From the human T2T-CHM13v2.0 reference genome, Homo sapiens, in NCBI RefSeq assembly GCF_009914755.1, contig NC_060928.1: a stretch of DNA of 64,000 nucleotides, one strand, 5' to 3'. Within the stretch, counting starts at the first letter, position 1. Every line of letters starts with the position of its first letter. Position numbers and translations under genes: made by a program. Shown here one piece after another: positions 6,008 to 53,908 of the stretch. Under the pieces are notes generated by a model. The model saw only the letters and a program-made list of their open reading frames with translations, was not told the DNA's origin and did not search any database.

Positions 6008-8293
6008 TGATATGGTTTGGCCCTGTCCCCACTCAAATCTCATCTTGAATTGTAGTTCCCGTGATCCCCATGTGTTGTGGGAGGGACCTGGTGGGAGGTA
6101 ATTGAATCGTGGAGGTGATTACCTCTATGCTGTTCTCTTGATAGTGAGTGAGTTCTCATGAGATCTGATGGTTTTATAAGGGGCTTTTCTCCACCTTCTC
6201 TATGCACTTATCTTTGCTGCCACCATGTGAAGAAGGATGTGTTTGCTTTCCCTTCTGCCATGATTGCATGTTTCCTGAGGGCTCCCCAGCCATGCTGAAG
6301 TGTGAATCAATTAAACCTCTTTCCTTTAGAAATTACCCAGTCTCAGGTATGTTTTTATTAGCAGCATTAGAATGGACTAATATGGTAAATTAGTACTGGT
6401 AGAGTGGAGTGCTAATATAAGGATACCTGAAAATGTGGAAGCGACTTTCGAACTGGGCAACAAGCAGGGGTTGGAATAGTTTGGAGGGCTCAGAAGAAGA
6501 CAGGAAAATGTGGGAAAGTTTGCAACTTCCTAGAGACTTGTTGAATAGCTTTGACCAAAATACTGATAGTGATATGAACAATGAAGTCCAGTGAGGTGGT
6601 CTCAGATGGAGAAGAGGAACTTGTTGGCAACTGGAGCAAAGCTGACTCTTGTTATGCTTTAGCAAAGAGACTGGCAGCATTTTGTCCCTGCCCTAGAGAT
6701 CTGTGGAACTTTGAACTTGGGAGAGATGATTTAGGGTATCTAGTGGAAGAAATTTCTAAGTGGCAAAACATTCAAGAGGAAGCACAGGATAAAAGTTTGG
6801 AAAATTTGCAGCCTGATGCTGTAGAAAAGAAAACCCATCATCTGAGGAGAAATTAAAGTCCATTGCATAAATTTGCATAAGTAATGAGGAGCCAAATGTT
6901 AATCACCAAGACAATGGGTAAAATGTCTCCAGGGCATGTCAGAGAACTTAATAGAAGCCCCTCCTATCACAGGCCCAGAGGCCTAGGAGGGAAAAATGGT
7001 TTTGTGGGGCAGGTCCAGGACCCCCCTGCTGTGTGCAGCCTTGGGACTTGGTGCCCTGTGTCCCAGCCTCTCCAGATGTGGCTAAAAAGGGCCAATGTAC
7101 AGCTCAAACCATTGCTTCAGAGGGTGTAAGCCCCAATCCTTAGCAGCTTCCACATGGTATTGGGCCTGCAGGTGTGCAGAAGTCAAGAAGTGAGGTTTGG
7201 GAACATTGGCTTAGATTTCAGAGGATGTACGGAAAGGCCTGGATGTCCAGGCAGGTGTGCCACAGGGGCAGGGTCCTCATGGAGAACCTCTGCCAGGGCA
7301 GTGTGGAAGGCAAATGTGGAGTTGGAGCCCACATAGAGTCCCCACTGGGGCACTGCCTAGTAGAGCTGTGAGAAGAGGGCCAACATTCTCTAGACTCCAG
7401 AATGGTAGATTCACTGACACCTTGCACGGTGCACCTGGAAAAGCTGCAGATCCTCAATGCCAGCCATGAAAGGAGCCAGGAGTGGGGCAGGGCCCTGGAA
7501 AGCCACAGGGCAGTGATGTCCAAGGTCATAGGAGCCCATCTCTTGCATGAGCATAACCTGGATATGAGACATGGAGTCAAAGAAGATTATTTTGAAGCTT
7601 TAAGATTTATTTACTGCCCAATTGGATTTTGGACTTGCATGGGGCATGTAGCCCCTTTGTTTTGGCCAATTTTTTCAATTTGGAATGGCTGTATTTACCT
7701 AATGCCTGTACCTCCATTCTATCTAGGAAATAACTAACTTGCTTTTGATTTTACAGGCTCATAGGCAGACTGGACTTGCTTTGTCTCAGATAAGACTTTG
7801 GACATGGACTTTTGAGTCAGTGCTGGAGTGACTTAAGACTTTGTGGTACTGTTGGGAAAGCGTGATTGTGTTTTGAAATGTGAGGACATGAAATTTTGGA
7901 GGGGTGAGGGGTGGAATTATGTGGTTTGGCTGTGTCCCCACCCAAATCTCATCTTGAATTGTAGTTCCTATAATACCCACGTGTTGTGGGAGGGACCTGG
8001 GGGAAGGCAATTGTATCATGGGGGTGGTTATCCCCATGCTGTTCTCATGATAGTGAGTGAGTTCTCATGAGGTCTGATGGTTTTATAAAGGACTTTTCTT
8101 CTACTTCACTCTGTACTTCTCCTTGCTGCCACCATGTGAAGAAGGATATGTTTGCTTCCTCTTTCACCATGATTGTAAGTTTCTTGAGGCCTCCCCAGCC
8201 ATGCTTAATTGTGAGTTAATTAAATCTCTTTCTTTTATAAATTATCCAGTGTCAGGTATGTCTTTATTAGCAGCTTGAAAACTAACTAATACA
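6008..8293 (+). mobile_element. Full-length THE1D-like MaLR provirus (LTR 6008-6384, internal 6385-7916, LTR 7917-8293)
   Basis: Two ~377-bp direct-repeat LTRs flank a ~1.5-kb internal region starting GTAAATTAGTACTGGTAGAGTGG. A purine-rich tract precedes the 3' LTR. Frameshifted MaLR-internal ORF pieces (VVSDGEEELVGNWSK...). TSD is degenerate (CTAAC/CTAGT). Confidence 0.95.
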
Positions 8294-10062: not shown

Positions 10063-10380
<318 letters not shown>

Positions 10381-10521
10381 AGCATGAAATATTTTCATAG
10401 AGATACTTAGTAGCCTATTATGGCATTCTGTTTCCTATAACACATACTAAATTCTTTTTAGTTAACTAACTGATGGTAATGTCTTAGAAGACAACTTTTA
10501 AAAAACATTTATATAATTCTT

Positions 10522-10558
10522 GCACACGTACCCTGGAACTTAAAGTATAATAAAAAAA
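10522..10558 (+). mobile_element. Ultra-truncated L1PA 3' tip (37 bp)
   Basis: GCACACGTACCCTGGAACTTAAAGTATAAT plus A-tail, between perfect 15-bp repeats ATTTATATAATTCTT (10507-10521, 10559-10573). Confidence 0.9.
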
Positions 10559-10573
10559 ATTTATATAATTCTT

Positions 10574-10782
10574 ATGTATCAGGCACTATTTTAAACGATA
10601 TGTAAACATTATCTGTTTTAATGCTCATAAAATTTGATGAAGTAGGTAGTAGTATAACAGATAGATTAACTGACACATGGGACAATTAATTGGGTTGCCT
10701 AAGGCCAACAGCTGGTAAATAGGGCAGGGATTGGAATCCAGACAGTTTGACTCCAGAGTTAGCACTCTTAACCACTATGCTA
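10574..10782 (-). mobile_element. MIR SINE
   Basis: TTGCCTAAGGCCAACAGCTGGTAAAT...GGATTGGAATCCAGACAGTTTGACTCCAGAG...TTAACCACTATGCTA. Confidence 0.8.
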
Positions 10783-10987
10783 CTCATAGTGATTTCAGCT
10801 CATGTTTCTGTGGAGTTTGCACAGGTGAGAGAAGTCTTAATGAGTGAAACATGATAGTCAACCCAGAGGAGAAAAATCAGAAGTCATATAATATGATTTC
10901 ATTACCTGTATTTGGCATATTTACAATAATTTGCCGGTAAGATGTCAAATGTCAAATGTAAGCATAATTTAAAAGTGGCTATAGTAT

Positions 10988-11323
10988 TGTCTTAGTTCAT
11001 TTGGGCAGCTATAACAAAATGCCATAAACTGGGCAGCTTGCAAACAACAAAAATCTATTTTTCACACTTCTGGAGGCTGGGAAGTCCAAGATCAAAGAGC
11101 CACAGATTTGGTGTCTGAGGACCCATTTCCTTGTTCACAGATGGCACCTTTTGTGTCCTCATGTGGTGAAAACGTGGGAACTAGCTCCTGTTTTATAAGG
11201 GCACTAATCCTATTCATGAAGGCTTATGACCTAATCACCTCCCAAAGAGCCTCTAACATCACCTTGAGGGTCAGGACTTTAACATAAGAATTTCAGGAGA
11301 CACAGAACATTCAGACTATAGCA
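10988..11323 (-). mobile_element. MLT1A/MLT1A0 solo LTR
   Basis: TGTCTTAGTTCATTTGGGCAGCTATAACAAAATGCC...CATTCAGACTATAGCA. TSD AGTAT/AGCAT. Confidence 0.88.
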
Positions 11324-18255: not shown

Positions 18256-18511
18256 GCACTGTGACTCTAGAGATAGGACTGTTATTCACAATGCCAGACA
18301 AGTTCTTAGAAGGGGACATATTTATGCCTCTTAAGAGCATGGATAATATTGCTACAAAAGATACTGCTATGAAAGTTTGTACCTACATTTTGCTGACAAG
18401 CTGACCCATTATAAGAATAAAGATGTAAATTAAAGAGCAAAACATGTCTGCCTAAAAGTACACAAAATTTCCTGAAAGACATCTTTGAATGACATTCAAA
18501 AAAATTTTTCT

Positions 18512-18853
18512 GGATGTGAGGGCAATCTGGCTGCAATATCTTTCGCCCCATTGATTGGCAGGGTTGATTTGGCTGATCTGGCTGGCTAGGCAGATGTCCC
18601 CTTTTTCCCTCACCACTCCATGTGCATTCCTACCAAAGCTGTGCACTCGGTCAAAGAGGACGACCATCCCCGAGAGAGAAGGACTGGTCTTCAGTCAAGG
18701 GTATATGAGTAGCTATGTCCCCTTCTAGAACCTCCAAATAAGCTCTCAAGGTCAATTTGTAGCAGAACGTAGGGTAGTCAAGCTTCCAAGACTCCAGACA
18801 CATCCAAATGAGGTGCTGCATGTGGCAGTTTGCCTTTTTTAAAAAAAAAAAAA
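18512..18853 (+). pseudogene. Full-length processed 7SK snRNA pseudogene (RN7SKP-type)
   Basis: Colinear with 7SK from GGATGTGAGGGC to CATGTGGCAGTTTGCCTTTTTT (~329 nt), followed by an A-tail. Many CpG transitions. A-rich insertion site. Confidence 0.96.
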
Positions 18854-19254
18854 ATTCCTTACTTTTTCTTGCTATTTTTAACCTTTACTTTGAGAATATG
18901 CACCTGATTTTTGTATTAATTAAAATAAAAAAATGAAAGAAAAAGGTTATGTTTTTAGAACACTGGATGGTATATATTGACCTACTGTTATTTCTCCATG
19001 GTTTTACTTAAATCACACCTTGTATACATAGAAAATGTTGCATTAATCCTCTTATAAGTGAGCTTAGATTTTTTGATAGTAAAAAGAAAATGAATTTTTC
19101 ATAAAACCCTCTGACTTGGGTGTTTTGATGTGCATAATGAAGTTTATGAAGCTCTTTAAATATATTCACTGTAAAGCCCTTGTTGAGATTATGAAACTTG
19201 TTTTTAAGAAATGATTATTTTAATGATAGTCTTTATTACAGAAATTCTTTTTCT

Positions 19255-19493
19255 TATTGTTACTCTAGTATTTTCCTTCACTTTCACGGTAGTGTTAACA
19301 TTCACCATATAATTCATCATTATGAATAGAGAGAGCAACGGATAAAACAAGAGTGTTTTGTTTCTGGATGAATCCCAGGAAAATTTTAAGTCCCTTATTC
19401 AATTATGCATGGTACCACATTATGAATATGGTGAATGATACGGTGAATGTTAACACCACCATGAAAGTGAAGGAAAATACTAGAGTAACAATA
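19255..19493. repeat. Inverted repeat, 66-bp arms (19255-19320 / 19428-19493), with templated insert in the loop
   Basis: Arms are 61/66 complementary by manual alignment. Loop 19329-19417 matches 20365-20453 at 80/89. Confidence 0.95.
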
Positions 19494-19496
19494 GTC

Positions 19497-19594
19497 AGAA
19501 GTCTCTTCTGATTTATAAAACTGTAAGAGAATAAATTTATGTTGCTTTAAGTCATCAAGTTTATGGTTACAGCAATCATAGGGAATGAATTATA
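19497..19594 (+). mobile_element. MLT1 LTR 3' end only
   Basis: CTTCTGATTTATAAAACTGTAAGAGAATAAATTTATGTTGCTTTAAGTCATCAAGTTTATGGTTACAGCA matches the MLT1 terminal segment. It is truncated at the palindrome arm. Confidence 0.7.
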
Positions 19595-21898
19595 AGAGTC
19601 TTACTATAATAAGCCAGTAAAGAAATTTTAAAATACAGTTCAAGGAAAAAGTTCTTATTTGACAAGGCAGTTTTAAGGAGAAAAGAAAGCTGAAGTGCAA
19701 AGTGAGAATGGAGTAGAAAGGTAAGAAAAGAGTAGCAAAGGAGAAGGGAGTAGCTAGGTGAGGCTGTGAAGTTTGATATCTGTCGAAGACTGGCCAGAAT
19801 AATGAACTGGAAATGGTTTAAGCTTACTTCTGCTTTGGTTGCATAGCAAACAACTATGTAAATTATGTCCACCAGAAAAGTACACCAATGAATGTGTGCA
19901 GTTACCTGATGACCCTCTTGTTCCTCAAGGAGCTGTCACCTAGGTTCTGTGATCAAATATTGCCTTTTAAGTAATTAGTCTGAGGGTGGGGACATGGTCT
20001 ATCAGTGGTCCACGTACAACCAGTGAAGTTCTTCCTACCTGTGCCATAGTCGCATATGACTATGTTCTATTTTTTGTTGTGTTTTGGGTCTATAGCAGGC
20101 CTGGACATAACCTACCACATGAGCTTTCCAAATGCTGAAAGATAATATCTCATACAAATTCCATTTCACATTCTATTTTTTTCAGTAATTGAGTTTATAT
20201 TATAGTGGTAGCATTTTCTTCTTTATTCCTCCAGTAAGAAGCGGAGGTTCTACTCAATTTTGAACTTGTCTGGTATATATATATTGCACAGACTCTTTTT
20301 TTTGTCTCAGCAAAAATGATGTAAGATAGAAAACCCTCTGTTGCTAGGTTGAGAGGGAGAGGAAGAGAGAGTGACGGATAAAACAAAAATGTTTTGTTTG
20401 TGGATGAATCCCAGGAAAATTTTAAGCCCCTTCTTCTGTTATGCATGGTACCAAAACAACATGGCCCTGTCATAGTGAGAGGTTAGACCTAGATGAGGAA
20501 GGTGTCCAAGCCTCAAGGTTGAAGGCCATTTAAGTGTGATACTGAGAAAGCAGCCTAACATTATCAGCCTAACATTATCAGGCTTCCTATGGGAATAAGA
20601 TAATCTATGGTACCCTGTGGTTAGGACAAGGAGGACAGAGTGTGGGGCCCAAAGATGCAGAGAAAATATTTAAATAGTCATATTTCAGCAGATAACAGTG
20701 CAGGAGACATAGGGAATCATGTGAAATGAGGGATGTTTCCAAGGAGGTGATAAAGATCTAAAAAACAAGGACAGGAGTACATCAGATGCCCCTTGTACTG
20801 GTGCCAGGATGATAAGTAAGCGCCTCAAGAATGTAGATTATGCAGAAAAGGGAGAATCTAAATAAGCAGTCCCTGAGATGATACCTCCCAAAGACTAATC
20901 TGAAACAGCATGAGTTAATCTTACAGAAACAACTGGGGCCTCAAAACTGGATGAGGTTAGTTCTAAAAATAAAGCAATTTACATTAAAACATTTTTTGGG
21001 ACAAAAATTTTGACTCTCACAATCCCTTAACTTTCATTCTTAAGTACTTCTTAATTATCTCAAAGAATGGTGATCATTGACTTCATACTTGTCAAGCCTA
21101 GTGACTTTTCTGTAGTCTTTATTCTACAATTTCTGTGCTGGTTTTAGAACCATCTTCCCTCAGATTCCTCCTCACCCATATCCTTCTCTGGGTTGTACTG
21201 TTGGGGTCTGTTTCCTGGTCTTCCATACGGCTTGCTTATAGGTGAGACAATGGGAGACCTGCTGAAAACTGTCAGGGGATCTTTCTTCCAACTTTAATAT
21301 CTGAATCATACCTAGGTCTGCTTTGATTTTTTAAATTCTTTTGACTTTTAAGACACATTTTACTGCCTTTTCAAATGTCCATAAATTGTGATTGTTGCAT
21401 TATATTACAATGGGTGGTTCACTCATCTTCTCTATCCCCAACCTCAAGCATAAGTAAGTTTCCTAATGATTACAGCACCTGGCTCATAGAGAATAGACAT
21501 TAAAAGTTTATTGGCTAAATGAATAGCTATAGGTATGGGGTGAGGTAACAGAGAGAGCCTCCTCCTGAAGGACTGATCAGAATCAATGTTTGCCATAATT
21601 GCGATATCCTACTGAGAATCACTTTCTGTAAGTGTAATTCATGGAAATATGCCTTATCCTCAGGAATACTCATGTAGAGAAAAGGTGAGAAGCTTTGCTT
21701 TATAGAGAAGAGAGTTTTCCATACAGGCCTGCCTTTTGACTTATTGGAAAGGGAGAGGACTGGACTGAAAATGAACGTAGATCCAAAAATGGTACAAATA
21801 TGGAGATAATGCTTTTCAAACTTTTCCTTCTAATTACTCATCAGGGCAGAGGAAGGTAAATATGCACATCTGGATCTGAGTTGGAGGTAATGATGATG

Positions 21899-22020
21899 TG
21901 GACCAAGAAACCAATCTGCCATAGGCTAAGAGTCTATCTTGAACATTAATTTAGATGTCAATTCTTAAGTTAATATTCAAGATAGACTCTCAGCCTATGA
22001 CAGATTGCCTTCTTGCTCCA
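21899..22020. repeat. Inverted repeat, 55-bp arms (21899-21953 / 21966-22020)
   Basis: 48/55 complementary. The 12-nt loop contains the L1 TSD ATGTCAATTCT. Confidence 0.93.
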
Positions 22021-22572
<552 letters not shown>

Positions 22573-23615
22573 TCTCTTACTTTCAATAGAGTTGATATTC
22601 TAAGTGTGTGGCATGACTTTTACTCTGAGACATTGTCTATCACTGGCTCAGGCTTCTTCAGCAGGAGCTTCATATTTTCCATGCTTCTACCTTGAGAAGT
22701 ACGGCACAAAGGAAAAGATACATCACTTGCTGGTCGCAGACCTCATTCCAAGAGAACATTTTGACAGAGGAGGAGAGCTGGAGGTGGTCAGGTGCTTGCA
22801 GTGCGGGGCAGGAGAGGAGTTTGAGATGTGGATGGGAGAGGCCACTGAAAACTTAGAGTGGGTTTTCCTTTGGATTTTTACTTTGGTTAATTCTGGTATT
22901 TAAAAATTTTGGGCAGCAATGATTTTGATTAATATTAACCACATCTTTTCCCTTCAATCATTTAAAATGGCTCCATTTTCCTGTTATAAAATGGCCAGTA
23001 AGAGAAAATCTGATCTTGGTGGATAACCTGTGTGTCCTGCCCTAAACTAAAACGCTTAAATATTGTTACTGTGGTCTCAGAAGACAAAATGTCCCAGATC
23101 TATTTATTTTTAGTAAGCGCACCTTACTAAAGCACACTTCACCTTTGCTCTTACCAGGTATGTACAATCCCATTTAGGAGATAAGTGCTGAGCTGGGGGA
23201 AATAGAAGCCCTGAACACTCTGAAATCTTATATGCAAATTATATCACAGTTGCATTATTTGCTAAAGTTCATTTTGAGGCACTCTGGGATGTGATTAATT
23301 TTAAGGGTAATGCAGGATGTTGTCTACTGAATTCAGAAGCCCTGAGGGATAAATACATTTGCCTATTTTCTTATTACTAAGGGGATGGTTAATAGAAAAT
23401 GGAAGCAGAATACTTACAGTAGAACATTATAGTATCTAATTTTTACAGGAGGCATAAACTATGCTGGGAGCTACGCTATAGGATAAATGAGCCTATTGCA
23501 GCACAGATCAGGCTAATAAAATAAATGTATGTAAAAATATGTTTATTTGCTCTCTTCTATGCATCACAAGAATGCCTCGTGCCTCTTGGAGAAGAGTCCA
23601 TCATCCACCTGTGTA

Positions 23616-27492: not shown

Positions 27493-29881
27493 GAGGTGGG
27501 GTGGAGCAAGACAGGTGAATAGAAGCCTCCACTAGTCAATCCCTCCTGCAGGAACACCAAATTTAACAAATATCTACACAAAAAAATCACCTTCACAGGA
27601 ACCAAAAATCAGGCAAGCACTCACAGTACCTCGCTTTTACTTCATATCACGGAACAAGGCACTGAAGCGGGTAGGAGAGTCAGTCTTGAATTGCCGACAC
27701 CACACCTCTGCCATCCCCCTACAGTGGCCTTGTGGCATGGAAAGAGAATCTGTGCACTTGAGGGAGGAAAAGTGTAGTGACTACGGGACTTTGCATTGAA
27801 CTCAGTGCTTCTCTGTCACAGTGGAAAGCAAAACCCGGCTGAACTCAGCTGACACCAATGCAGAAAGCATTTAGGACAACCCTAGCCAGAAAGGAATCAC
27901 CCATTGCAAGGGTCAGAACTTGACTTTTGGCAAGTCTCGCCACCACAGGCGAAAGTCCTCTGAGATCCTAAATAAACTTGAATGGCAGTCTAGGCTACAA
28001 GGACTGAAACTACTAGGTAAGTCCTAGTGCTATGCTAGGCTCAGAATCAGCAGACTTAGGGGGAATGCAACCTAGTGAGATACTAGTCAGAGCAGCTAAG
28101 GGAGTGCTTATGCCACCCTTCTCCTAACCCCAGGTAGCACAGCTCATAGCAAGGAAAGTGACTCTGTCCTTCTGATTGAGGAGAGGCGAGTGAAGAGTAA
28201 AGAGGACTTTGTCTTGCAACTTGGATACCAGTTCAGCCACAGTAAGACAGAGCACTGGGCAGAGTTATGAGGTCCCCATTCCAGGTCCTAACTCCAGGAT
28301 GATATTTCTAGACACACCCTGGGCTCGAAGTGAACCTGCTGCCTTGAAGGGAGAGACCCAATCCTGGCAGAATTCATCACTTGCTGACTAAAGAGCCCCT
28401 GGACCCGGAATTATCAGCAGTGATACCCAGATAGTATTCCATGGGCCTTGAGTGAGACTCTGAGACATGCTGGCTTTAGGTGTGATCCAGCACATTCCCA
28501 GTGGTGGTGCTACAGTGGGAGACTCCTTCTGCTTGAGAAAAGCAGAGCGAAAAATAAAGGGGTCTTCATTTTGCAGCTTAGGTACTAGTTTGGCCACAGT
28601 GGGGTAGAGCACCAAATAGGCTCTTGGGGTACCCATTTCCAGGCATAGGTTCTTGGATTGCATTTTGGCCTGCCCTGGGTCAGAGGGGAGTTCACTCCCC
28701 TGAAGGGTGAGCCCTAGGCCTGGCAGCATTCACCACAAGCTAACAGAAGAAGCCTTGGGCTTTAAGTGCACATTGGCAGTAGCCTGGCAATACTCTCTGT
28801 GAGCCTGTTGTGGTGGTGGCCATGGTGAGAGGCTCCTCTGCCTGTGCAAAGAAAAGTGAATAGCGAAAAGGGCTTTGTCTCATGGTTTGAGTGCCAGCTC
28901 AGGTGCAGTAGAGAAGGAATTCAGAATCTTATCAGATACATTTAACAAAGAAATTGAAATAATTAAAAAGAATCAAGCACCAGGTAGATTTCTAAGGTTT
29001 TCGACTCCAGTCCCTGGCTCCCGGATGGCATCTCTGGACCTGCCCAGGGCCTGGGGGAACTCACTGCACAAGAGACGTGGCTGGATTTGCCACCTGCTGT
29101 TGTGGAGTCCCAGGGCCTTCAGTTAACATAGGCGGTAACCAGGCAGTGGCTATAGCAGGCCTTGGGTGAGACTCAGTGCTGTACTGACTTCAGGTCTGAT
29201 CCAGCACGGTCCCAGTGATGGTGGCCACAGTGGTGCTTGTGTCACCCTTCACCTCCAGGCAGCTCAGCACAGACAGGGAGACTCCATTTGTGTGACAGAA
29301 AGTAAGGGAAAAGAACAACAGTCCTTGCCTGGTAAATCAGTGAATTCTGGATCTTATCCAAGACGACCAAGGCAGTACATCTACGAGTCTGTAAGAATCA
29401 CAGCATAACTAGTCTTGAGGTGCTTCCTAATGCAATATGTCTTACATCACAACACCCAAGTCCTTTTGAATACCTGGAAAGCCTTCCCAAGAAGGACAGG
29501 TACAAACAAGCCCAGAGTGTGAAGACTACAATAAATACCTAATTCTTCAATGACTAGACACCAATCAACATCTACAAGCATCAGGACCATCCAGAAAAAC
29601 TTGACCTTACCAAATGAACTAAATAAGGCACAAGGGAGCAATCCCAGAGAGAAAGAGATATGTGATCTTTCAGAGAGAGAAATCAAAATAGTTGTTTTGA
29701 GAAAACTCAAATAAATTTAAGATAACATAGAGAAGGAATTCAGAATCTTATCAGATAAATTTAACAAAGAAATTGAAATAATTAAAAAGAATCAAGCAGA
29801 AATTCTGGAGTTGAAAATGTAACTGGCATATTGAAGAATGCATCAGAGTCTCTTAGTAGCAAAACTGATCAAGCAGAAGAA
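27493..29881 (+). mobile_element. L1 (L1PB/L1MA-era) intact 5'UTR plus ORF1 start, 3'-truncated
   Basis: GGAGCAAGACAGGTGAATAGAAGCCTCCA start. ~340-bp internal UTR repeat units. ORF1 remnant EKEFRILSDKFNKEIEIIKKNQAEILE. Flanks AGAAAATTACAA / AGAAAATTATAA. Confidence 0.85.
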
Positions 29882-34089: not shown

Positions 34090-37000
34090 ATGGGTTGTCA
34101 TTAGCAAACTGCTCACATCTTCAACCTCTTGTCTGATTGTTCCCATCATATTCTGTTCAAGCAACACTAGCTTTTATTGACACCACTTTCTCTAGAAGCA
34201 GCTGTGTTTTCTCTCATACTCCATGTGAACCTCAAGGCCTGGAGGTGAATGGATGGCCTTGAATCCTTGTTTGCTGCCTTCAAGCCTTCCTCTCCTTCTT
34301 TTAAACTGCTAGTTCTTTTGTAGCTCATGACATTAGATTTTACTATTACTCTGCCTTGTGGTGTCATGTACTCCTTCTGGTTGCTTCTTCTCACTCCTAG
34401 ATGACAATGAAAATGCTTCCTTTCTTTCTTTCACTCATTCTGTTGCTATGCTAAATTCTTAGTTGCCTGACTTTCTTAGCCCCAAGAATCTCTTTCTTCT
34501 CTCCATCTTGCCATGGCTTCCTGACTCCCATATATGGTTATATCCAGACATGGTGTTACTCATAATAATGGCACCATTTCCAGCCATTGTCTTCTCTGAC
34601 TTCACCTCCTGGCTAGCTAACTCCTAACTCTAGTACTCTCACTTTAGTTATTCTTCTTCTTAAACACTTGTCTACTGACCCCACCACGTTTTTGCTATTC
34701 ACAACCCCTCACTCTCCTTTTCACCCAAGTTAGATTCGATGAATTGGCATGATAACCATCCCATTGCTAACATCCTTAATTCTCTTGACCTCCCATCCTA
34801 CTCTATTGTATGCAGCTGACCAAACTTTAGCTGTGCCTAATTAAGGCCAATGGTCTGTGTACTTTGGCTCTTGATATGGTTTGCCTGTGTCCCCACCCAA
34901 AGCTCATCTTTTAATTGTAACTACCATAATTTACACATGTCATGGGAGGAACCCAGTGGGAGGTAATTAAATTATGGGGGTGGGTCTTTCCCACTCTGTT
35001 CTCGTGATAGTAAGTTTCATGAGATCTGTTGGTTTTAAAAATGGCAAGCTCTCTCATTCTCTCCTTTGTCACCACCATGTAAGAAGTGCCTTTCGCCTTC
35101 CACCAGCATTGTGAAGCCTTTCTAGCTGTGTGGAACTGTGAGTCCATTAAACATCTTTCTTTTGTAAATTGCCCAGTCTCAGGTATGTCTTTATCAGCAG
35201 CATAAAAACAGAGTAATGCAGTAAACTGGTACCAGGAGAGTGGGATATTGCTGAAGAGGTATGCAAAAATGTGGAAGTGACTTTGGAAGTGGGTAACAGG
35301 CAGAGGTTGGAACAGTTTGGAGGACTCAGAAGAAGACAGGAAAATGTGGGACAACTAGTCCTAGAGACTAGTTGAATGGCTTTGACAAAAATGCTGATAG
35401 TTATATGAACAATAAGGTCCAGGCTGAGGTGGTTTCAGATGGAGATGAGGAACTTGTTGGGAACTGGAGCAAAGGTGACTCTTGTTATGTTTTAGCAAAG
35501 AGACTGGTGGCATTTTGCCCCTGCCCTAGAGATTTGTGGACTTTGAATGTGAGACAGATGATTTAGGGTATCTGGCAGAAGAAATTTCTAAGCAGCAAAG
35601 TATTCAAGAGGTGACTTTGGGCCCTATTAAAAGCATTCAGTTTTAAAAGGGAAACAGAGCATAAAAGTTTGGAAAATTTGCAGCCTGACAATGTGATAGA
35701 AAAGAAAATCTCATTTTCTGAGGAGAAATTCAAGCCAGGTGCAGAAATTTGCATAAGTAACAAGCTGAATGTTATTCCCCAAGACATTTGGGAAAATGTC
35801 TCCAGGGTATGTCAGAGGTTTTCAGGGCAGCCCCTCCCATCACAGGCCTGGAGCTTTAGAAGGAAAAAATTGTTTTGTGTGTTGGGCCCAGGGTCCCTAT
35901 GCTGTGTGCACCCTAAGGACTTGGTGCCCTTTGTCCCAGATGCTCCAACTGTGACTAAAAAAGGCCAAGGTACAGCTCAGGCTGTTGCTTCAGAGGGTGG
36001 AAGCCCCAAGTCTTGGCAGCTTCCATGTGGTGTTGAGCCTGTGCGTTCACAGAAGTCAAGAATTGAGGTTTGGGAATCTCTGCCTAGATTTCAGAGGCTC
36101 TATGGAAACTCCTGGATGTCCAGGCAGAAGTTTGCTGCAGAAGTGAGGCTCTCATGGAGAACCTCTGCTAGGGCAGCGCAGAAGGGAAATGTAGGATGGG
36201 AGCCCCCCCACACAGAGTTCCTACTGGGGTACCACCTAGAGGAGCTGTAAGAAGCGGGCCACTGTCCTCCAGACCCCAGAATGGTAGGTCCACATACAGC
36301 TTGCACTGTGCACCTGGGAAAACCACAGACACTCAAAACCAGCCTGTGAAAGCAGCTGGGAGGGAGGGGGAGGCTATCCCCTGCAAAGCCTCAGGGGTGG
36401 AACTGCTCAAGACCATGGGAACTCACCACTTGTATTAGCATGACGTGGATGTGAGACATGGATTCAAAGGAAATCATTTAGAGCTTTAAGATTTGACTGC
36501 CCTGCTGGACTTCAGACTTGCATGGGGCCTGTGGCCCCTTCATTTTGGCCAATTTCCCCCATTTGGAATGGCTGTATTTACCCAATGCCTGTATCCCCAT
36601 TGTATCTAGGAAGTAACTAACTTGCCTTTGATTTTACAGGCTCATAAGTGGAAGGGACTTGCCTTGTCTCAGGAGACTTTGGATTTTTGAGTTAATGCTG
36701 AAACGAGTTAAGACTTTGGGAGACTTTTGGGAAGGTATGATTGGTTTGGAAATATGAGGACATGAGATTTGGGAGGGGCTGGGGGTGGCATGATATGGTT
36801 TGCCTGTGTCCCCACCCAAATCTCATCTTGAATTGTAACTCCTATAATTTCCATATGTTGTGGGAGAAACCCAGTGGGAGGTAATTGAATTATGGGGGCG
36901 GGTCTTTCCTGTGCTGTTCTTGTGATAGTGAATAAGTCTCATGAGCTCTGATGGTATTAAAAACAAGAGTTTCTCTGCACAAGCTCTCTCATTCTCTCTC

Positions 37001-38208
37001 TTGCTGCCTCCATGTAAGAAGTACCTTTTGCCTTCCACCATGATTGTGAGGCCTTTCTAGCTGTGTGGAACTGTGGGTCCATTAAACGTCTTTCTTTTGT
37101 AAATTGCCCAGTCTTGGGTATGTCTTTATCAGCAGCAGGAAAATGGACTAATACAACCCTATACCAGAGTAGCTGGACATTGCTGGATGACAGTTAGACT
37201 ACCATGCTGACTGGCCTTGCTTCAGATTTATGACCCCTGATCTCAAAATCACTGAGCACTTTCAGAAACTCCTATTTCAGTTTTCTAGTAAATTCACTGT
37301 CATCCTCTCTAGATGACTATTTCACACCTTCTCTTCTCCAATCTCAAACACTGATTATTCTGTTTTACTCTCAGTTGATGACTTGGTTTTCTACTTCAGA
37401 GAGAAAATGGATATAATCAACAAAAACATGCTACTTTCCTACCACCCGCCTATATCTTCAGTCACATATGCTCTTTTCTCCTGTATTTCTCTTTTTCTCA
37501 AATTTCTCCATTTCTCAAACCGTTCTTATGTTTGCCAGCTCTCTATTTTTGTTAACACATCTCTAACTGCTGGAGTGCCCAGAGTTTATTTTTCAACCCT
37601 CTAATCATCTATAGTTACATTTTCTTAAGATACCCTGCTTAGTCCCAAGGCTTTAAATGCCATCTATATGCTGATGGCTCCCAAATTTTTATTTATAATT
37701 TTGAACTTTGTCCTGAAAATCAGAATTGTATGTCTGATATCTTACACAGTATTTTTACTTGAGTGTCTCTAACCAAACATGGCTTCTCTTAATTTTCTGA
37801 AAAAAATCATCTCTCAATCTTTCCATTTATCAATACATGGTATTATCATCCACTCAGTTGCTGTTCAGGCTGAAAACATGGGAGTTATTCTTGAATCCTC
37901 TTTCTTTCACTGCTCACATTGAATCTACCAGACAGTCCAGTTGCCTGTGTTTCTAAATTATATTTTATATCTGACTATATCTCATCATTTCCAGTGCTGT
38001 AAACTAGACCAAATTGTCACTATATTTTACTCAGAGCACTTAGAAGTTCCTAAAATTATTGTAATTATTTTGCTTATGTTACTGTCTGCTTCCATACATT
38101 AGAATGTCAACTCACTGAAGGTAGGGACATTATCTTGTTCCCTCTTGTGTACCTAGCACCAATACTAGCACATACTAAGGGATCAATAAATATTTTTGCC
38201 TGACTGAT
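34090..38208 (+). mobile_element. L2 element interrupted by THE1 provirus
   Basis: Pyrimidine-rich L2 body (CTCAGTTGATGACTTGGTTTTCTACTTCAGAGAGAAAAT; AAATGCCATCTATATGCTGATGGCTCCCAAATT) and 3' end ...CAATAAATATTTTTGCCTGACTGA. Confidence 0.75.
34872..37155 (+). mobile_element. Full-length THE1B-like MaLR provirus (LTR 34872-35220, internal 35221-36790, LTR 36791-37155)
   Basis: The two LTRs share variants (TTTGCCTGTGT, CCTTTCTAGCTGTGTGG). Internal region starts GTAAACTGGTACCAGGAGAGTGGG. 193-aa internal ORF remnant at 35669-36250. Confidence 0.95.
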
Positions 38209-53007: not shown

Positions 53008-53422
53008 TGATATGATTTGGATCTGTGTCCCCACCAAATCTCATGTCAAATTGTGATCCCCAGTGTTGGAGGTGGGGCCTTGTGGGAGGTGATTGGATCA
53101 TGGAGGCAAGTTCTTATGAGTGGATTAGCACCATCCCCTCAGTGCTGTCCTCATAATAGTGTGTGAGTTATAATGAGATCTCATTGTTTTTAAGTGCATA
53201 GCACCTCCCCACTCTTCTTCCTGCTCTGGCTGTGTGAAGTGCTCACTCCCCCTTTGCCTTCCACCATGACGGTGAGTTTCCTGAGGCCTCCCTAGAAGTC
53301 AAGTTCATGCTGCCATGCTTTCTGTACAGCCTGCAGAATTGTGAGCCAATTAAACCTTTTTTCTTTATAAATTACCCTGTCTCAGGTATTTCATTATAGC
53401 AGTGTGAGAACGAACTCATACA
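53008..53422 (+). mobile_element. MSTA/B solo LTR
   Basis: TGATATGATTTGGATCTGTGTCCCCACC...GAACGAACTCATACA. TSD TGGTC/TGGTT. Confidence 0.9.
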
Positions 53423-53908
53423 TGGTTTTAGTTTGTGTTTTGTATTGCTATAACAGAATACCACAGACTGGGTCATTTAGAAAGAAAAAACATTTATTTC
53501 TCACAGTTCTGGAGGCTGGGAAGTTCAAGATCAAGGGAATGCATGTGATAAGGGCTTTCTTGCTACATCATCGCATGGCAGAATGATCAAAAGAGCATGT
53601 ATATATATGTGTGCACTCATGTGCACATGTTCAGGCAAGACAGAGAAAGGCTGGGTGGGGGAAAGGGAGGGGGAGGAAGGGAGAAAGAAAGAGAGAGAGA
53701 GAGAGAGAGAAGAGGGCCAAACTCATTTTTCAGTAAGATCCACTCCTGAGATAACTAACCCATTTTTGAAGTAACAGCATTAACCCATTTATGAGGGCAG
53801 AGCCCTCATGACCTAATTACTTCTTAAAGGTCTCACTTCTCAACACTGTTGCATTGGTGACTGAGTTTCCAACACATGAGCTTTGGGAGGCACATTAAAG
53901 TCATAACA
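53423..53908 (-). mobile_element. MSTC/MLT1A-like solo LTR with internal GA-rich expansion
   Basis: TTAGTTTGTGTTTTGTATTGCTATAACAGAATACCACAGACTGGG...CACATTAAAGTCATAACA. Outer TSD GGTCA (52998-53002) / AGTCA (53909-53913). Confidence 0.8.

What the first reader, a model, noticed from the sequence alone, without database searches (positions are those of the whole stretch)
19255..20453. Palindrome whose tip has captured an 89-bp copy of DNA from 1,036 bp downstream, between 11-bp direct repeats
Seen: arms 19255-19320 and 19428-19493 are 61/66 complementary. The spacer 19329-19417 is a same-orientation copy of unique sequence 20365-20453 (80/89 identical; one CA/TG difference fits CpG decay). It is bracketed by perfect direct repeats CATTATGAATA (19318-19328, 19418-19428). 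Removing the insert and one repeat leaves a 139-bp hairpin with a 7-nt loop. The right arm abuts an MLT1 LTR that has lost its 5' part. There is no poly-A and no transposon terminus I recognise. Inference: either one multi-step template-switching repair event (deletion, fold-back, templated insertion; MMBIR/FoSTeS- or polymerase-theta-like), or a hairpin cut at its tip and patched from nearby DNA. Similar divergence of arms (~8%) and insert (~10%) fits one old event. If transcribed, it would form a 66-bp dsRNA stem.
Basis: partly seen in the sequence, partly recalled or inferred. Interest (0 to 1): 0.8.

Follow-up and report, generated by a model that had tools for sequence, protein, structure and literature searches.

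The report
Broken palindrome patched with nearby DNA
A one-of-a-kind 139-base DNA palindrome in a human gene desert was opened at its centre and filled with a 90-base copy of sequence from 1 kb away, leaving a neat but probably functionless scar of old DNA repair.

Summary
The arms 19255-19320 and 19428-19493 are 61/66 complementary. The stretch 19328-19417 is an 81/90 same-strand copy of 20364-20453. It is bracketed by perfect 11-bp repeats CATTATGAATA.

Neither refutation test is met. In the whole genome the arm matches only its partner, and the insert matches only its source. Repeat controls gave 172, 1279 and 5290 candidates.

The right arm abuts the last ~95 positions of a ~500-position LTR profile. 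The LTR's 5' part is nowhere nearby.

The 11-bp duplication is centred at 19323, one base from the palindrome axis at 19324. It is direct, not inverted.

Best reading (about 0.55): a fold-back repair event made the inverted copy and deleted the LTR's 5' part. The palindrome was then nicked on both strands around its loop and patched with local DNA. A single event with four template switches cannot be excluded, because no other species could be compared.

Nothing suggests a function. A second unique palindrome 2.5 kb away is an L1 insertion with an inverted flank duplication. Interest is modest.

The parts
19255..19320 (+). Left arm of the palindrome. Probably the original unique sequence.
   Evidence: 61/66 complementary to 19428-19493. 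In the whole genome it matches only itself and the other arm. The left flank 18856-19254 is also unique.
19318..19328 (+). Direct repeat 1 (CATTATGAATA). It covers the 7-nt loop 19321-19327 plus 3 nt on one side and 1 nt on the other.
   Evidence: Identical to 19418-19428. Its centre is 19323; the palindrome axis is 19324.
19328..19417 (+). Insert: a same-strand copy of 20364-20453.
   Evidence: 81/90 identical. It is the only other match of the source in the genome. There is no A-run at either end. Microhomology is 1 nt (A) at the left junction and 0 at the right.
19418..19428 (+). Direct repeat 2 (CATTATGAATA).
   Evidence: It has the same orientation as repeat 1, so it is not a reverse-complement copy.
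19428..19493 (+). Right arm. Probably the newly made inverted copy.
   Evidence: Its outer end coincides with the point where the LTR fragment is truncated.
19494..19504 (+). Junction between the right arm and the LTR fragment. The breakpoint lies somewhere in these 11 bases.
   Evidence: BLAST homology to other LTR copies starts at 19505/19506. The nhmmer alignment starts at 19499 with low posterior values.
19499..19590 (+). The 3' terminal ~95 positions of an MLT1/MaLR-type LTR (name recalled). The 5' ~390 positions are missing.
   Evidence: 172 genome candidates, 40 scored at 76-93% identity. Other copies share homology about 365 bp further upstream. Profile positions 392-486 of 503 are matched, and no match to positions 1-391 lies within 8 kb.
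20364..20453 (+). Source of the insert, unique DNA 1,036 bp downstream.
   Evidence: No direct repeats flank it (flanks shown), so it is the donor and not the copy. It starts inside a purine run (the stretch printed is 20345-20375). It ends exactly at the end of the perfect 8-nt palindrome TGGTACCA, 20446-20453.

Best explanation
This is a neutral scar of two DNA-repair events at one site.

Step 1 (inferred). A break was made near 19328. The 3' tail ending near 19328 folded back on itself at a very short turn: a 7-nt loop closed by CAT/ATG. It was extended for about 66 nt along its own strand, and was then joined to a distant end inside an LTR. This made the inverted copy 19428-19493 and deleted everything between, including the LTR's 5' ~390 positions. 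The product was a 139-bp palindrome.

Step 2 (inferred from the geometry). The palindrome extruded as a hairpin or cruciform. It was nicked once on each strand at the edges of its loop, 11 nt apart. The two overhangs were filled in, and a 90-nt copy of DNA from 1,036 bp downstream was joined between them with almost no microhomology. This left the direct 11-bp duplication. The new 107-nt spacer makes further extrusion much less likely, which may be why the structure survived.

Shown: the anatomy, the uniqueness of arms and insert, the truncation of the LTR, and the centring and orientation of the duplication. Inferred: the order of events, the enzymes involved, and which arm is the copy.
For: - Arms and insert are single-locus. 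The arm query and the source query each returned only the window's own two matches (1 and 2 first-look candidates), and the whole 239-bp element returned 3 matches, all in the window. Repeat controls gave 172, 1279 and 5290 candidates.
- The duplication is direct, 11/11 identical, and centred at 19323 against the axis at 19324. A random insertion into the 139-bp palindrome would land within 1 nt of the axis about 3 times in 139.
- The second CATTATGAATA cannot be produced by reverse-complement copying of the left arm. The stretch right of the insert must therefore already have read repeat + right arm, or have been re-copied from that template (sequence).
- Junction microhomology is 1 nt and 0 nt, which is typical of end joining.
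- The outer end of the right arm coincides with the LTR truncation. One breakpoint therefore explains both.
- Literature, passages read. Fold-back inverted insertions of 2 to about 150 bp, made by priming at one end and end joining at the other, are reported in yeast (PMC11724301). Self-annealing of a resected 3' end gives inverted duplications in human cells (bioRxiv 10.1101/2024.12.14.628481). Centre-break palindrome revision is cited in PMC3300023. Inverted repeats with a 52-bp spacer no longer stall replication in primate cells (PMC3300023; PMC7999016).
- A second unique palindrome 2.5 kb away shows the same fold-back architecture, tied to a datable break.
Against: - No orthologous sequence could be examined, so no genome with the palindrome but without the insert has been seen.
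- Arm divergence (5/66) is not higher than insert divergence (9/90; Fisher p = 0.78). The order of the two steps rests on geometry alone.
- A direct 11-bp repeat would also arise if a polymerase left the template at 19328 and came back 11 nt behind.
- The one cruciform pathway described for human cells is resolution at the base followed by hairpin opening by Artemis (review PMC7999016). By my own reasoning this would duplicate loop bases in inverted, not direct, order. The nicking step proposed here is therefore not the documented route.
- Three of the five arm mismatches lie in the 14 positions next to the loop. That region is a degenerate ~12-nt repeat, so the exact turn point is uncertain.
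- Whether 66-bp arms extrude in vivo is unknown.
Confidence: 0.55

Rival explanations
1. One replication-based event with serial template switching (FoSTeS/MMBIR type). The nascent strand copies the left arm through 19328. It then jumps 1,036 bp ahead and copies 90 nt. It returns to 19318 and re-copies 11 nt. It switches to the complementary strand and copies the arm backwards. Finally it resumes inside the LTR.
For: Divergence of arms and insert is statistically the same (5/66 vs 9/90, p = 0.78). All templates lie within 1.2 kb on one chromosome and the insert keeps the donor's orientation. The copied stretch starts in a purine run and ends at an 8-nt perfect palindrome, which are plausible pause points. 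Template switching that creates inverted repeats and hairpins is documented in human-chimp comparisons (PMC5453318, passages; PMC8794818 and PMC10710096, search listing and abstracts only).
Against: It needs four switches, each with 0-1 nt of microhomology, whereas such models usually invoke a few bases. It gives no reason why the excursion should leave and return symmetrically around the axis. The authors of the four-point model state that they do not model long-range or successive switches.
Confidence: 0.22
2. The 90-nt insert was put in by L1 ORF2p or another reverse transcriptase from a local RNA. This would be a templated sequence insertion with a target-site duplication, and the palindrome would be only the landing site.
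For: An 11-bp target duplication is the size L1 makes. The L1-type insertion 2.6 kb away has an 11-bp duplication too. Class 1 templated insertions have duplications of 5 bp or more (PMC5110952, passages). Non-polyadenylated L1-machinery insertions are reported (bioRxiv 10.1101/2024.12.14.628481).
Against: There is no A-run or T-run at either end of the insert. No AATAAA lies 10-30 nt from an end. Neither nick site resembles TTTT/A (sequence; criteria). The donor is 1 kb away on the same strand in a region with no annotated transcript (hub table). Chance landing within 1 nt of the axis is left unexplained.
Confidence: 0.08
3. The 239-bp unit is a non-autonomous DNA transposon (MITE) with 66-bp terminal inverted repeats, and its interior happens to share sequence with 20364-20453.
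For: The size and the long terminal inverted repeats look like a MITE.
Against: There are no other copies in 3.1 Gb. A real MITE-type palindrome from a control region gave 1279 candidates, and a third palindrome in the window gave 5290. The flanks TTCTTTTTCT and GTCAGAAGTC share no target duplication. The internal 11-bp direct repeats around the insert are not a MITE feature.
Confidence: 0.03
4. The hairpin is a functional RNA gene, such as a long-stem precursor of small RNAs or an editing substrate, kept by selection.
For: The RNA fold is -106.8 kcal/mol with z = -13.3. New miRNA hairpins can arise by template switching (PMC10710096, abstract only).
Against: There is no Rfam match at E <= 1 over 18400-22600 for this hairpin. 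There is no RefSeq feature, and the nearest gene is more than 73 kb away (hub table). The arms have drifted to 92% with no compensatory pattern. No expression data could be consulted.
Confidence: 0.02

Closest known systems
Centre-break palindrome revision in mammalian cells (Cunningham et al. 2003). Seen only as a citation in PMC3300023 and PMC7680136. The paper itself was not held.
   Same: The lesion is placed at the symmetry centre of a palindrome and is repaired by end joining. The product has an asymmetric centre that should be more stable.
   Different: As I recall it, that work describes mainly central deletions in transgene palindromes. Here the product is an insertion templated from 1 kb away, with a direct 11-bp duplication of the loop. 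This is a germline fossil, not an experimental clone.
Fold-back (snap-back) inverted duplications at double-strand breaks: yeast Pol delta plus end joining (PMC11724301), and inverted duplication of the flank at L1-induced breaks in human cells (bioRxiv 10.1101/2024.12.14.628481, Fig. 4D/E text).
   Same: A short turn with little microhomology, tens of bases copied from the same strand, and the new end then joined to another end. The 66-nt arm is inside the reported 2 to about 150 bp range.
   Different: Here the partner end lies inside an LTR with a deletion of at least ~390 bp, and no L1 is involved. For the second palindrome at 21896-22023 the match to the L1 case is close.
Templated sequence insertion polymorphisms, classes 1 and 2 (PMC5110952).
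   Same: A copy of an intact donor is pasted into a break, with end-joining-type junctions.
   Different: It has a target duplication like class 1 but no poly(A), no poly(A) signal and no TTTT/A site. It has end-joining junctions like class 2 but does have a duplication. The donor is 1 kb away in cis, not distant.
Short template-switch mutations, four-point model (PMC5453318).
   Same: A reverse-complement copy of adjacent sequence replaces a stretch and creates a hairpin-forming inverted repeat.
   Different: Those events are short-range switch-and-return. This one deletes several hundred bases and carries a second, forward-oriented templated piece.
Palindromic AT-rich repeats (PATRR) that break at their centre and cause translocations. 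Named in the reference lists and abstracts seen; details recalled.
   Same: The breakpoint is at the palindrome centre, attributed to cruciform extrusion.
   Different: PATRRs are several hundred bp, AT-rich and polymorphic, and give translocations or central deletions. This one is 139 bp, of mixed composition, and was healed in place.

Membership tests
MITE / DNA transposon with terminal inverted repeats | Many dispersed copies in the genome | tested here: not met
   The arm and the whole unit match only this locus. Controls gave 1279 and 5290 candidates.
MITE / DNA transposon with terminal inverted repeats | Target-site duplication flanking the whole element | tested here: not met
   The flanks TTCTTTTTCT and GTCAGAAGTC have no shared repeat.
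MITE / DNA transposon with terminal inverted repeats | Termini matching a known superfamily | not testable with these tools
   No Dfam or Repbase library was available.
Class 1 templated insertion (L1 ORF2p-mediated) | Target-site duplication of 5 bp or more | tested here: met
   11/11 direct repeat. The criterion is from PMC5110952.
Class 1 templated insertion (L1 ORF2p-mediated) | Poly(A) tail, with a poly(A) signal 10-30 nt upstream | tested here: not met
   The insert ends in GGTACCA and begins with AGAGAGAG, and has no A-run or T-run.
Class 1 templated insertion (L1 ORF2p-mediated) | Insertion at a TTTT/A-like site | tested here: not met
   The sequence at both borders of the duplication does not resemble it on either strand.
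Class 2 templated insertion (break patch) | No target duplication; end-joining junctions; donor intact | tested here: inconclusive
   The donor is intact and microhomology is 0-1 nt, but an 11-bp duplication is present.
Centre-break palindrome revision | Lesion at the symmetry centre | tested here: met
   The duplication centre is 19323 and the axis is 19324.
Centre-break palindrome revision | Palindrome existed before the central change | not testable with these tools
   This needs orthologous loci, and no primate or mammal genomes were held. It is argued only from the orientation of the second repeat.
Fold-back repair inverted duplication | Inverted copy adjacent to its template with a short turn | tested here: met
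   66-nt arms and a 7-nt loop after removal of the insert.
Fold-back repair inverted duplication | Outer end of the copy is a novel junction | tested here: met
   The right arm ends 5-11 nt before a 5'-truncated LTR fragment.
Known RNA family (miRNA or other hairpin) | Match to a curated covariance model | tested here: not met
   No Rfam hit at E <= 1 on 19255-19493.

The most novel reading that the evidence does not exclude
This locus may be a natural germline record of a palindrome-defusing pathway not yet described. In this reading, an extruded hairpin or cruciform is nicked once on each strand at the loop edges. That nicking would explain a direct duplication of the loop, rather than the inverted one expected from base resolution plus hairpin opening. 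The gap is then filled with a copy of DNA from about 1 kb away, which turns a dangerous unspaced palindrome into a harmless spaced one. If this is general, spacers of many genomic inverted repeats should be bracketed by axis-centred direct repeats and should match nearby DNA.
Probability: 0.3. Interest if true: 0.55.

Novelty: new member of a known kind. Interest (0 to 1): 0.32.

Why it matters
The locus has no sign of function. Its value is as a clean, sequence-resolved fossil of how human germline DNA makes a palindrome and then disarms it.

The direct, axis-centred duplication constrains where the strands were cut. This is information that experimental systems rarely preserve.

Together with the L1-linked palindrome 2.5 kb away, it shows that single-copy palindromes in the genome can be repair scars rather than transposons or RNA genes. 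This matters when such hairpins are annotated as candidate miRNA or dsRNA sources. If a census found many such patched centres, it would point to a general route of palindrome stabilisation.

Tried and rejected
- **MITE reading.** Rejected on copy number and on the lack of a flanking duplication.
- **Palindrome inserted into an intact LTR.** Rejected. The left flank is unique, and the LTR profile finds no 5' part within 8 kb.
- **Donor and copy reversed.** Rejected. No repeats flank 20364-20453.
- **Analogy with the second palindrome** (loop = target duplication of a retro-insert made of right arm + LTR). Rejected. The only downstream echo of the loop is a 6-mer that belongs to the LTR end itself. 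The LTR fragment runs to its natural end with no A-tail.
- **Clustering of palindromes.** A scan of 20 arbitrarily placed 10-kb pieces (200 kb) gave 15 inverted-repeat rows. By my reading 12 are Alu pairs and 3 are small non-Alu palindromes. The window has 3 in 64 kb. This is not a significant excess, so no claim is made.
- **Tool-based naming of the repeat at 22019-22224 as L1.** This failed. Pfam gave nothing usable on open frames upstream of four other copies (L044, L043, L045, L046), so the name is recalled.
- **Cunningham 2003** was not held.
- **Searches for a described centre insertion with a loop duplication** listed none among the titles and abstracts shown. I did not read those papers in full.
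Full report
**What is there.**
- Arms 19255-19320 and 19428-19493 are 61/66 complementary.
- 19328-19417 is an 81/90 same-strand copy of 20364-20453, 1,036 bp downstream.
- CATTATGAATA stands at 19318-19328 and again at 19418-19428, identical 11/11.
- With the insert and one repeat taken out in a script, the remaining 139 nt fold as a single hairpin with a 7-nt loop (-55.3 kcal/mol, DNA parameters).
- The present sequence still folds far better than shuffles: DNA -61.6 and RNA -106.8 kcal/mol, z about -13, 0 of 200 shuffles as good.
- In the whole 64-kb window only two inverted pairs of 40 nt or more lie within 3 kb of each other.

Chance is not an explanation.

**Is it a repeat family?** The assembly that holds the window (3.1 Gb) could be searched.
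- The 239-bp unit found only itself, its own reverse strand, and the 20364 copy.
- One arm found only itself and the other arm.
- The donor region 20250-20560 found only itself and the insert.
- The flanks 18856-19254, 19600-20363 and 20454-21200 are also single-copy.

The search can see old repeats. The stretch just right of the palindrome gave 172 first-look candidates, 40 scored at 76-93%. A MADE1-like palindrome (name recalled) from a control region gave 1279. A third palindrome in the window, 53327-53518, gave 5290. The tool warns that its counts are lower bounds and that very common words are skipped. No target duplication flanks the unit.

**The right-hand junction.** BLAST against nine other copies of the neighbouring repeat starts at window 19505/19506 and ends near 19596. 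Several of those copies share a further ~365 bp upstream with each other. A profile of the nine copies (503 positions) matches the window only with positions 392-486, at 19499-19590. It finds nothing for positions 1-391 within 8 kb; the other hits lie at 10094-11111 and 53437-53516. The right arm therefore ends 5-11 bases before a repeat that has lost about four fifths of its 5' side. One breakpoint explains both the end of the inverted copy and the truncation. This makes the right arm the likely copy and the left arm the likely original.

**Reading the centre.** Three features constrain the mechanism.
- The second CATTATGAATA has the same orientation as the first. Copying the left arm and its repeat backwards would give the reverse complement, which is a different word. 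So the sequence right of the insert either already read 'repeat + right arm' when the insert arrived, or was re-copied from such a template.
- The duplicated 11 bases (19318-19328) cover the 7-nt loop (19321-19327) plus 3 nt on one side and 1 nt on the other. Their centre is 19323, one base from the axis at 19324. An insertion at a random place in the palindrome would do this about 3 times in 139.
- The junctions carry 1 nt (A) and 0 nt of microhomology.

Together these fit two nicks on opposite strands, 11 nt apart, at the edges of the loop of an extruded hairpin or cruciform. The overhangs would then be filled in, and a 90-nt piece joined between them end to end.

By my own reasoning, the documented human route (resolution at the cruciform base followed by hairpin opening; review PMC7999016) would duplicate loop bases in inverted order. 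It therefore does not fit simply.

The donor keeps no flanking repeats, so it is the source and not the copy. The copied stretch begins in a purine run and ends exactly at the end of the perfect 8-nt palindrome TGGTACCA. This may mark where synthesis started and stopped. I treat that as an observation only.

**How the palindrome itself arose.** Fold-back priming at a resected break end is an established way to make short inverted duplications.
- In yeast, such events span 2 to about 150 bp. They use polymerase delta at one end and end joining at the other (PMC11724301, passages).
- In human cells, self-annealing of a resected 3' end gives inverted duplications next to L1-induced breaks (bioRxiv 10.1101/2024.12.14.628481, passages).
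- Replicative template switching is the alternative (PMC5453318, passages).

The 66-nt arm, the 7-nt turn and the junction to a distant end with a deletion fit the fold-back scheme. Sequence alone does not exclude the replicative version.

**One event or two.** Arm divergence is 5/66 (7.6%, 95% interval 2.5-16.8%). Insert divergence is 9/90 (10%, interval 4.7-18.1%). The Fisher test gives p = 0.78. Two arm mismatches and two insert mismatches sit at CpG sites. With a neutral rate of roughly 1e-9 per site per year per lineage (recalled, not from a call), both figures point to some tens of millions of years, with very wide error. They cannot order the steps.

A single event would need four switches with 0-1 nt of microhomology each, and it leaves the axial symmetry unexplained. 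Two events need the same number of joins but do explain the symmetry. I give two steps about 0.55 and one replicative event about 0.22. Only orthologous loci can settle this, and none were available.

**Function.** No Rfam family matches the hairpin at E <= 1. RefSeq lists nothing here except the 7SK pseudogene upstream, and the nearest gene is more than 73 kb away (hub table). The arms have drifted without a compensatory pattern. I could not consult expression, small-RNA or editing data. The most likely consequence of the insert is purely physical. Spacers of about 50 bp already abolish replication stalling at inverted repeats in primate cells (PMC3300023; PMC7999016). A 107-nt spacer should therefore have stabilised the locus.

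**A parallel 2.5 kb away.** Arms 21896-21953 and 21966-22023 (58 nt, 86%, 12-nt loop) are also unique in the genome.
- The loop is G plus ATGTCAATTCT (21955-21965).
- The same 11-mer recurs at 22231-22241, immediately after an A-run.
- Between them lie the right arm and a 5'-truncated multi-copy repeat, 22019-22224. This repeat gave 2349 candidates, with the best at 88-91%. I recognise it as an L1 3' end. Pfam gave no usable hit on open frames upstream of four other copies, so the name is recalled.
- The arm and the repeat overlap by 5 nt. The window reads CATAT, and both sources read CACAT.

The order is flank, target duplication, inverted flank, L1, A-tail, target duplication. This is the 'L1 insertion with inverted duplication of the reciprocal end' that the bioRxiv preprint reports from an L1 clone and a tumour, here as an old germline example. 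It shows that fold-back synthesis does leave single-copy palindromes of this size in human DNA.

A control scan of 200 kb from 20 other places gave 3 small non-Alu palindromes, against 3 in this 64-kb window. I therefore make no claim of clustering.

**Verdict.** It is best filed as a fossil of known repair processes: fold-back inverted duplication, centre break of a palindrome, and templated patching. One detail is uncommon: a direct, axis-centred duplication around a locally templated insert. My searches (listings and selected passages only) did not turn up a description of that detail. Interest is modest.

Noticed in passing
window 21896-22241: A second genome-unique palindrome: 58-nt arms, 86% complementary, 12-nt loop. 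Its loop is the 11-bp target duplication (ATGTCAATTCT, repeated at 22231-22241) of a 5'-truncated L1-type insertion with an A-tail. The right arm lies inside the insertion and joins the L1 part through 5 nt of microhomology. [quoted passage not shown]
   Followed up: partly
window 18512-18855: Full-length 7SK RNA pseudogene (Rfam RF00100, 292 bits, model 1-331), followed by an A-run. It matches the RN7SKP48 annotation and is unrelated to the palindrome.
   Followed up: partly
window 53327-53518: A third palindromic stretch (through-centre alignment of 195 columns at 74%). It belongs to a very abundant repeat (5290 first-look candidates), i.e. two inverted copies or a palindromic element. It served as a positive control.
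   Followed up: partly
window 20551-20578: A perfect tandem duplication of 14 bp (CAGCCTAACATTAT twice), about 100 bp downstream of the donor stretch.
   Followed up: no
window 20345-20375 and 20446-20453: The donor stretch starts inside a purine-only run and ends exactly at the end of the perfect 8-nt palindrome TGGTACCA. These are possible start and stop signals for the copying.
   Followed up: no
window 6010-8218 and 34910-37155: Pairs of direct repeats of 100-300 nt at 85-88% identity, spaced about 1.9 kb apart. They look like the two LTRs of small LTR elements.
   Followed up: no
window 28909-28979 and 29728-29798: A 71-nt direct repeat at 99% identity, 819 bp apart, next to a second pair at 80% (28444/29158). 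This may be a young local duplication or a rearranged repeat.
   Followed up: no
window 19296-19328 and 19418-19452: The tip of the first palindrome is built from degenerate ~12-nt units containing TGAAT or its complement. Three of the five arm mismatches lie in the 14 positions next to the loop, so the exact turn point of the fold-back is ambiguous.
   Followed up: no
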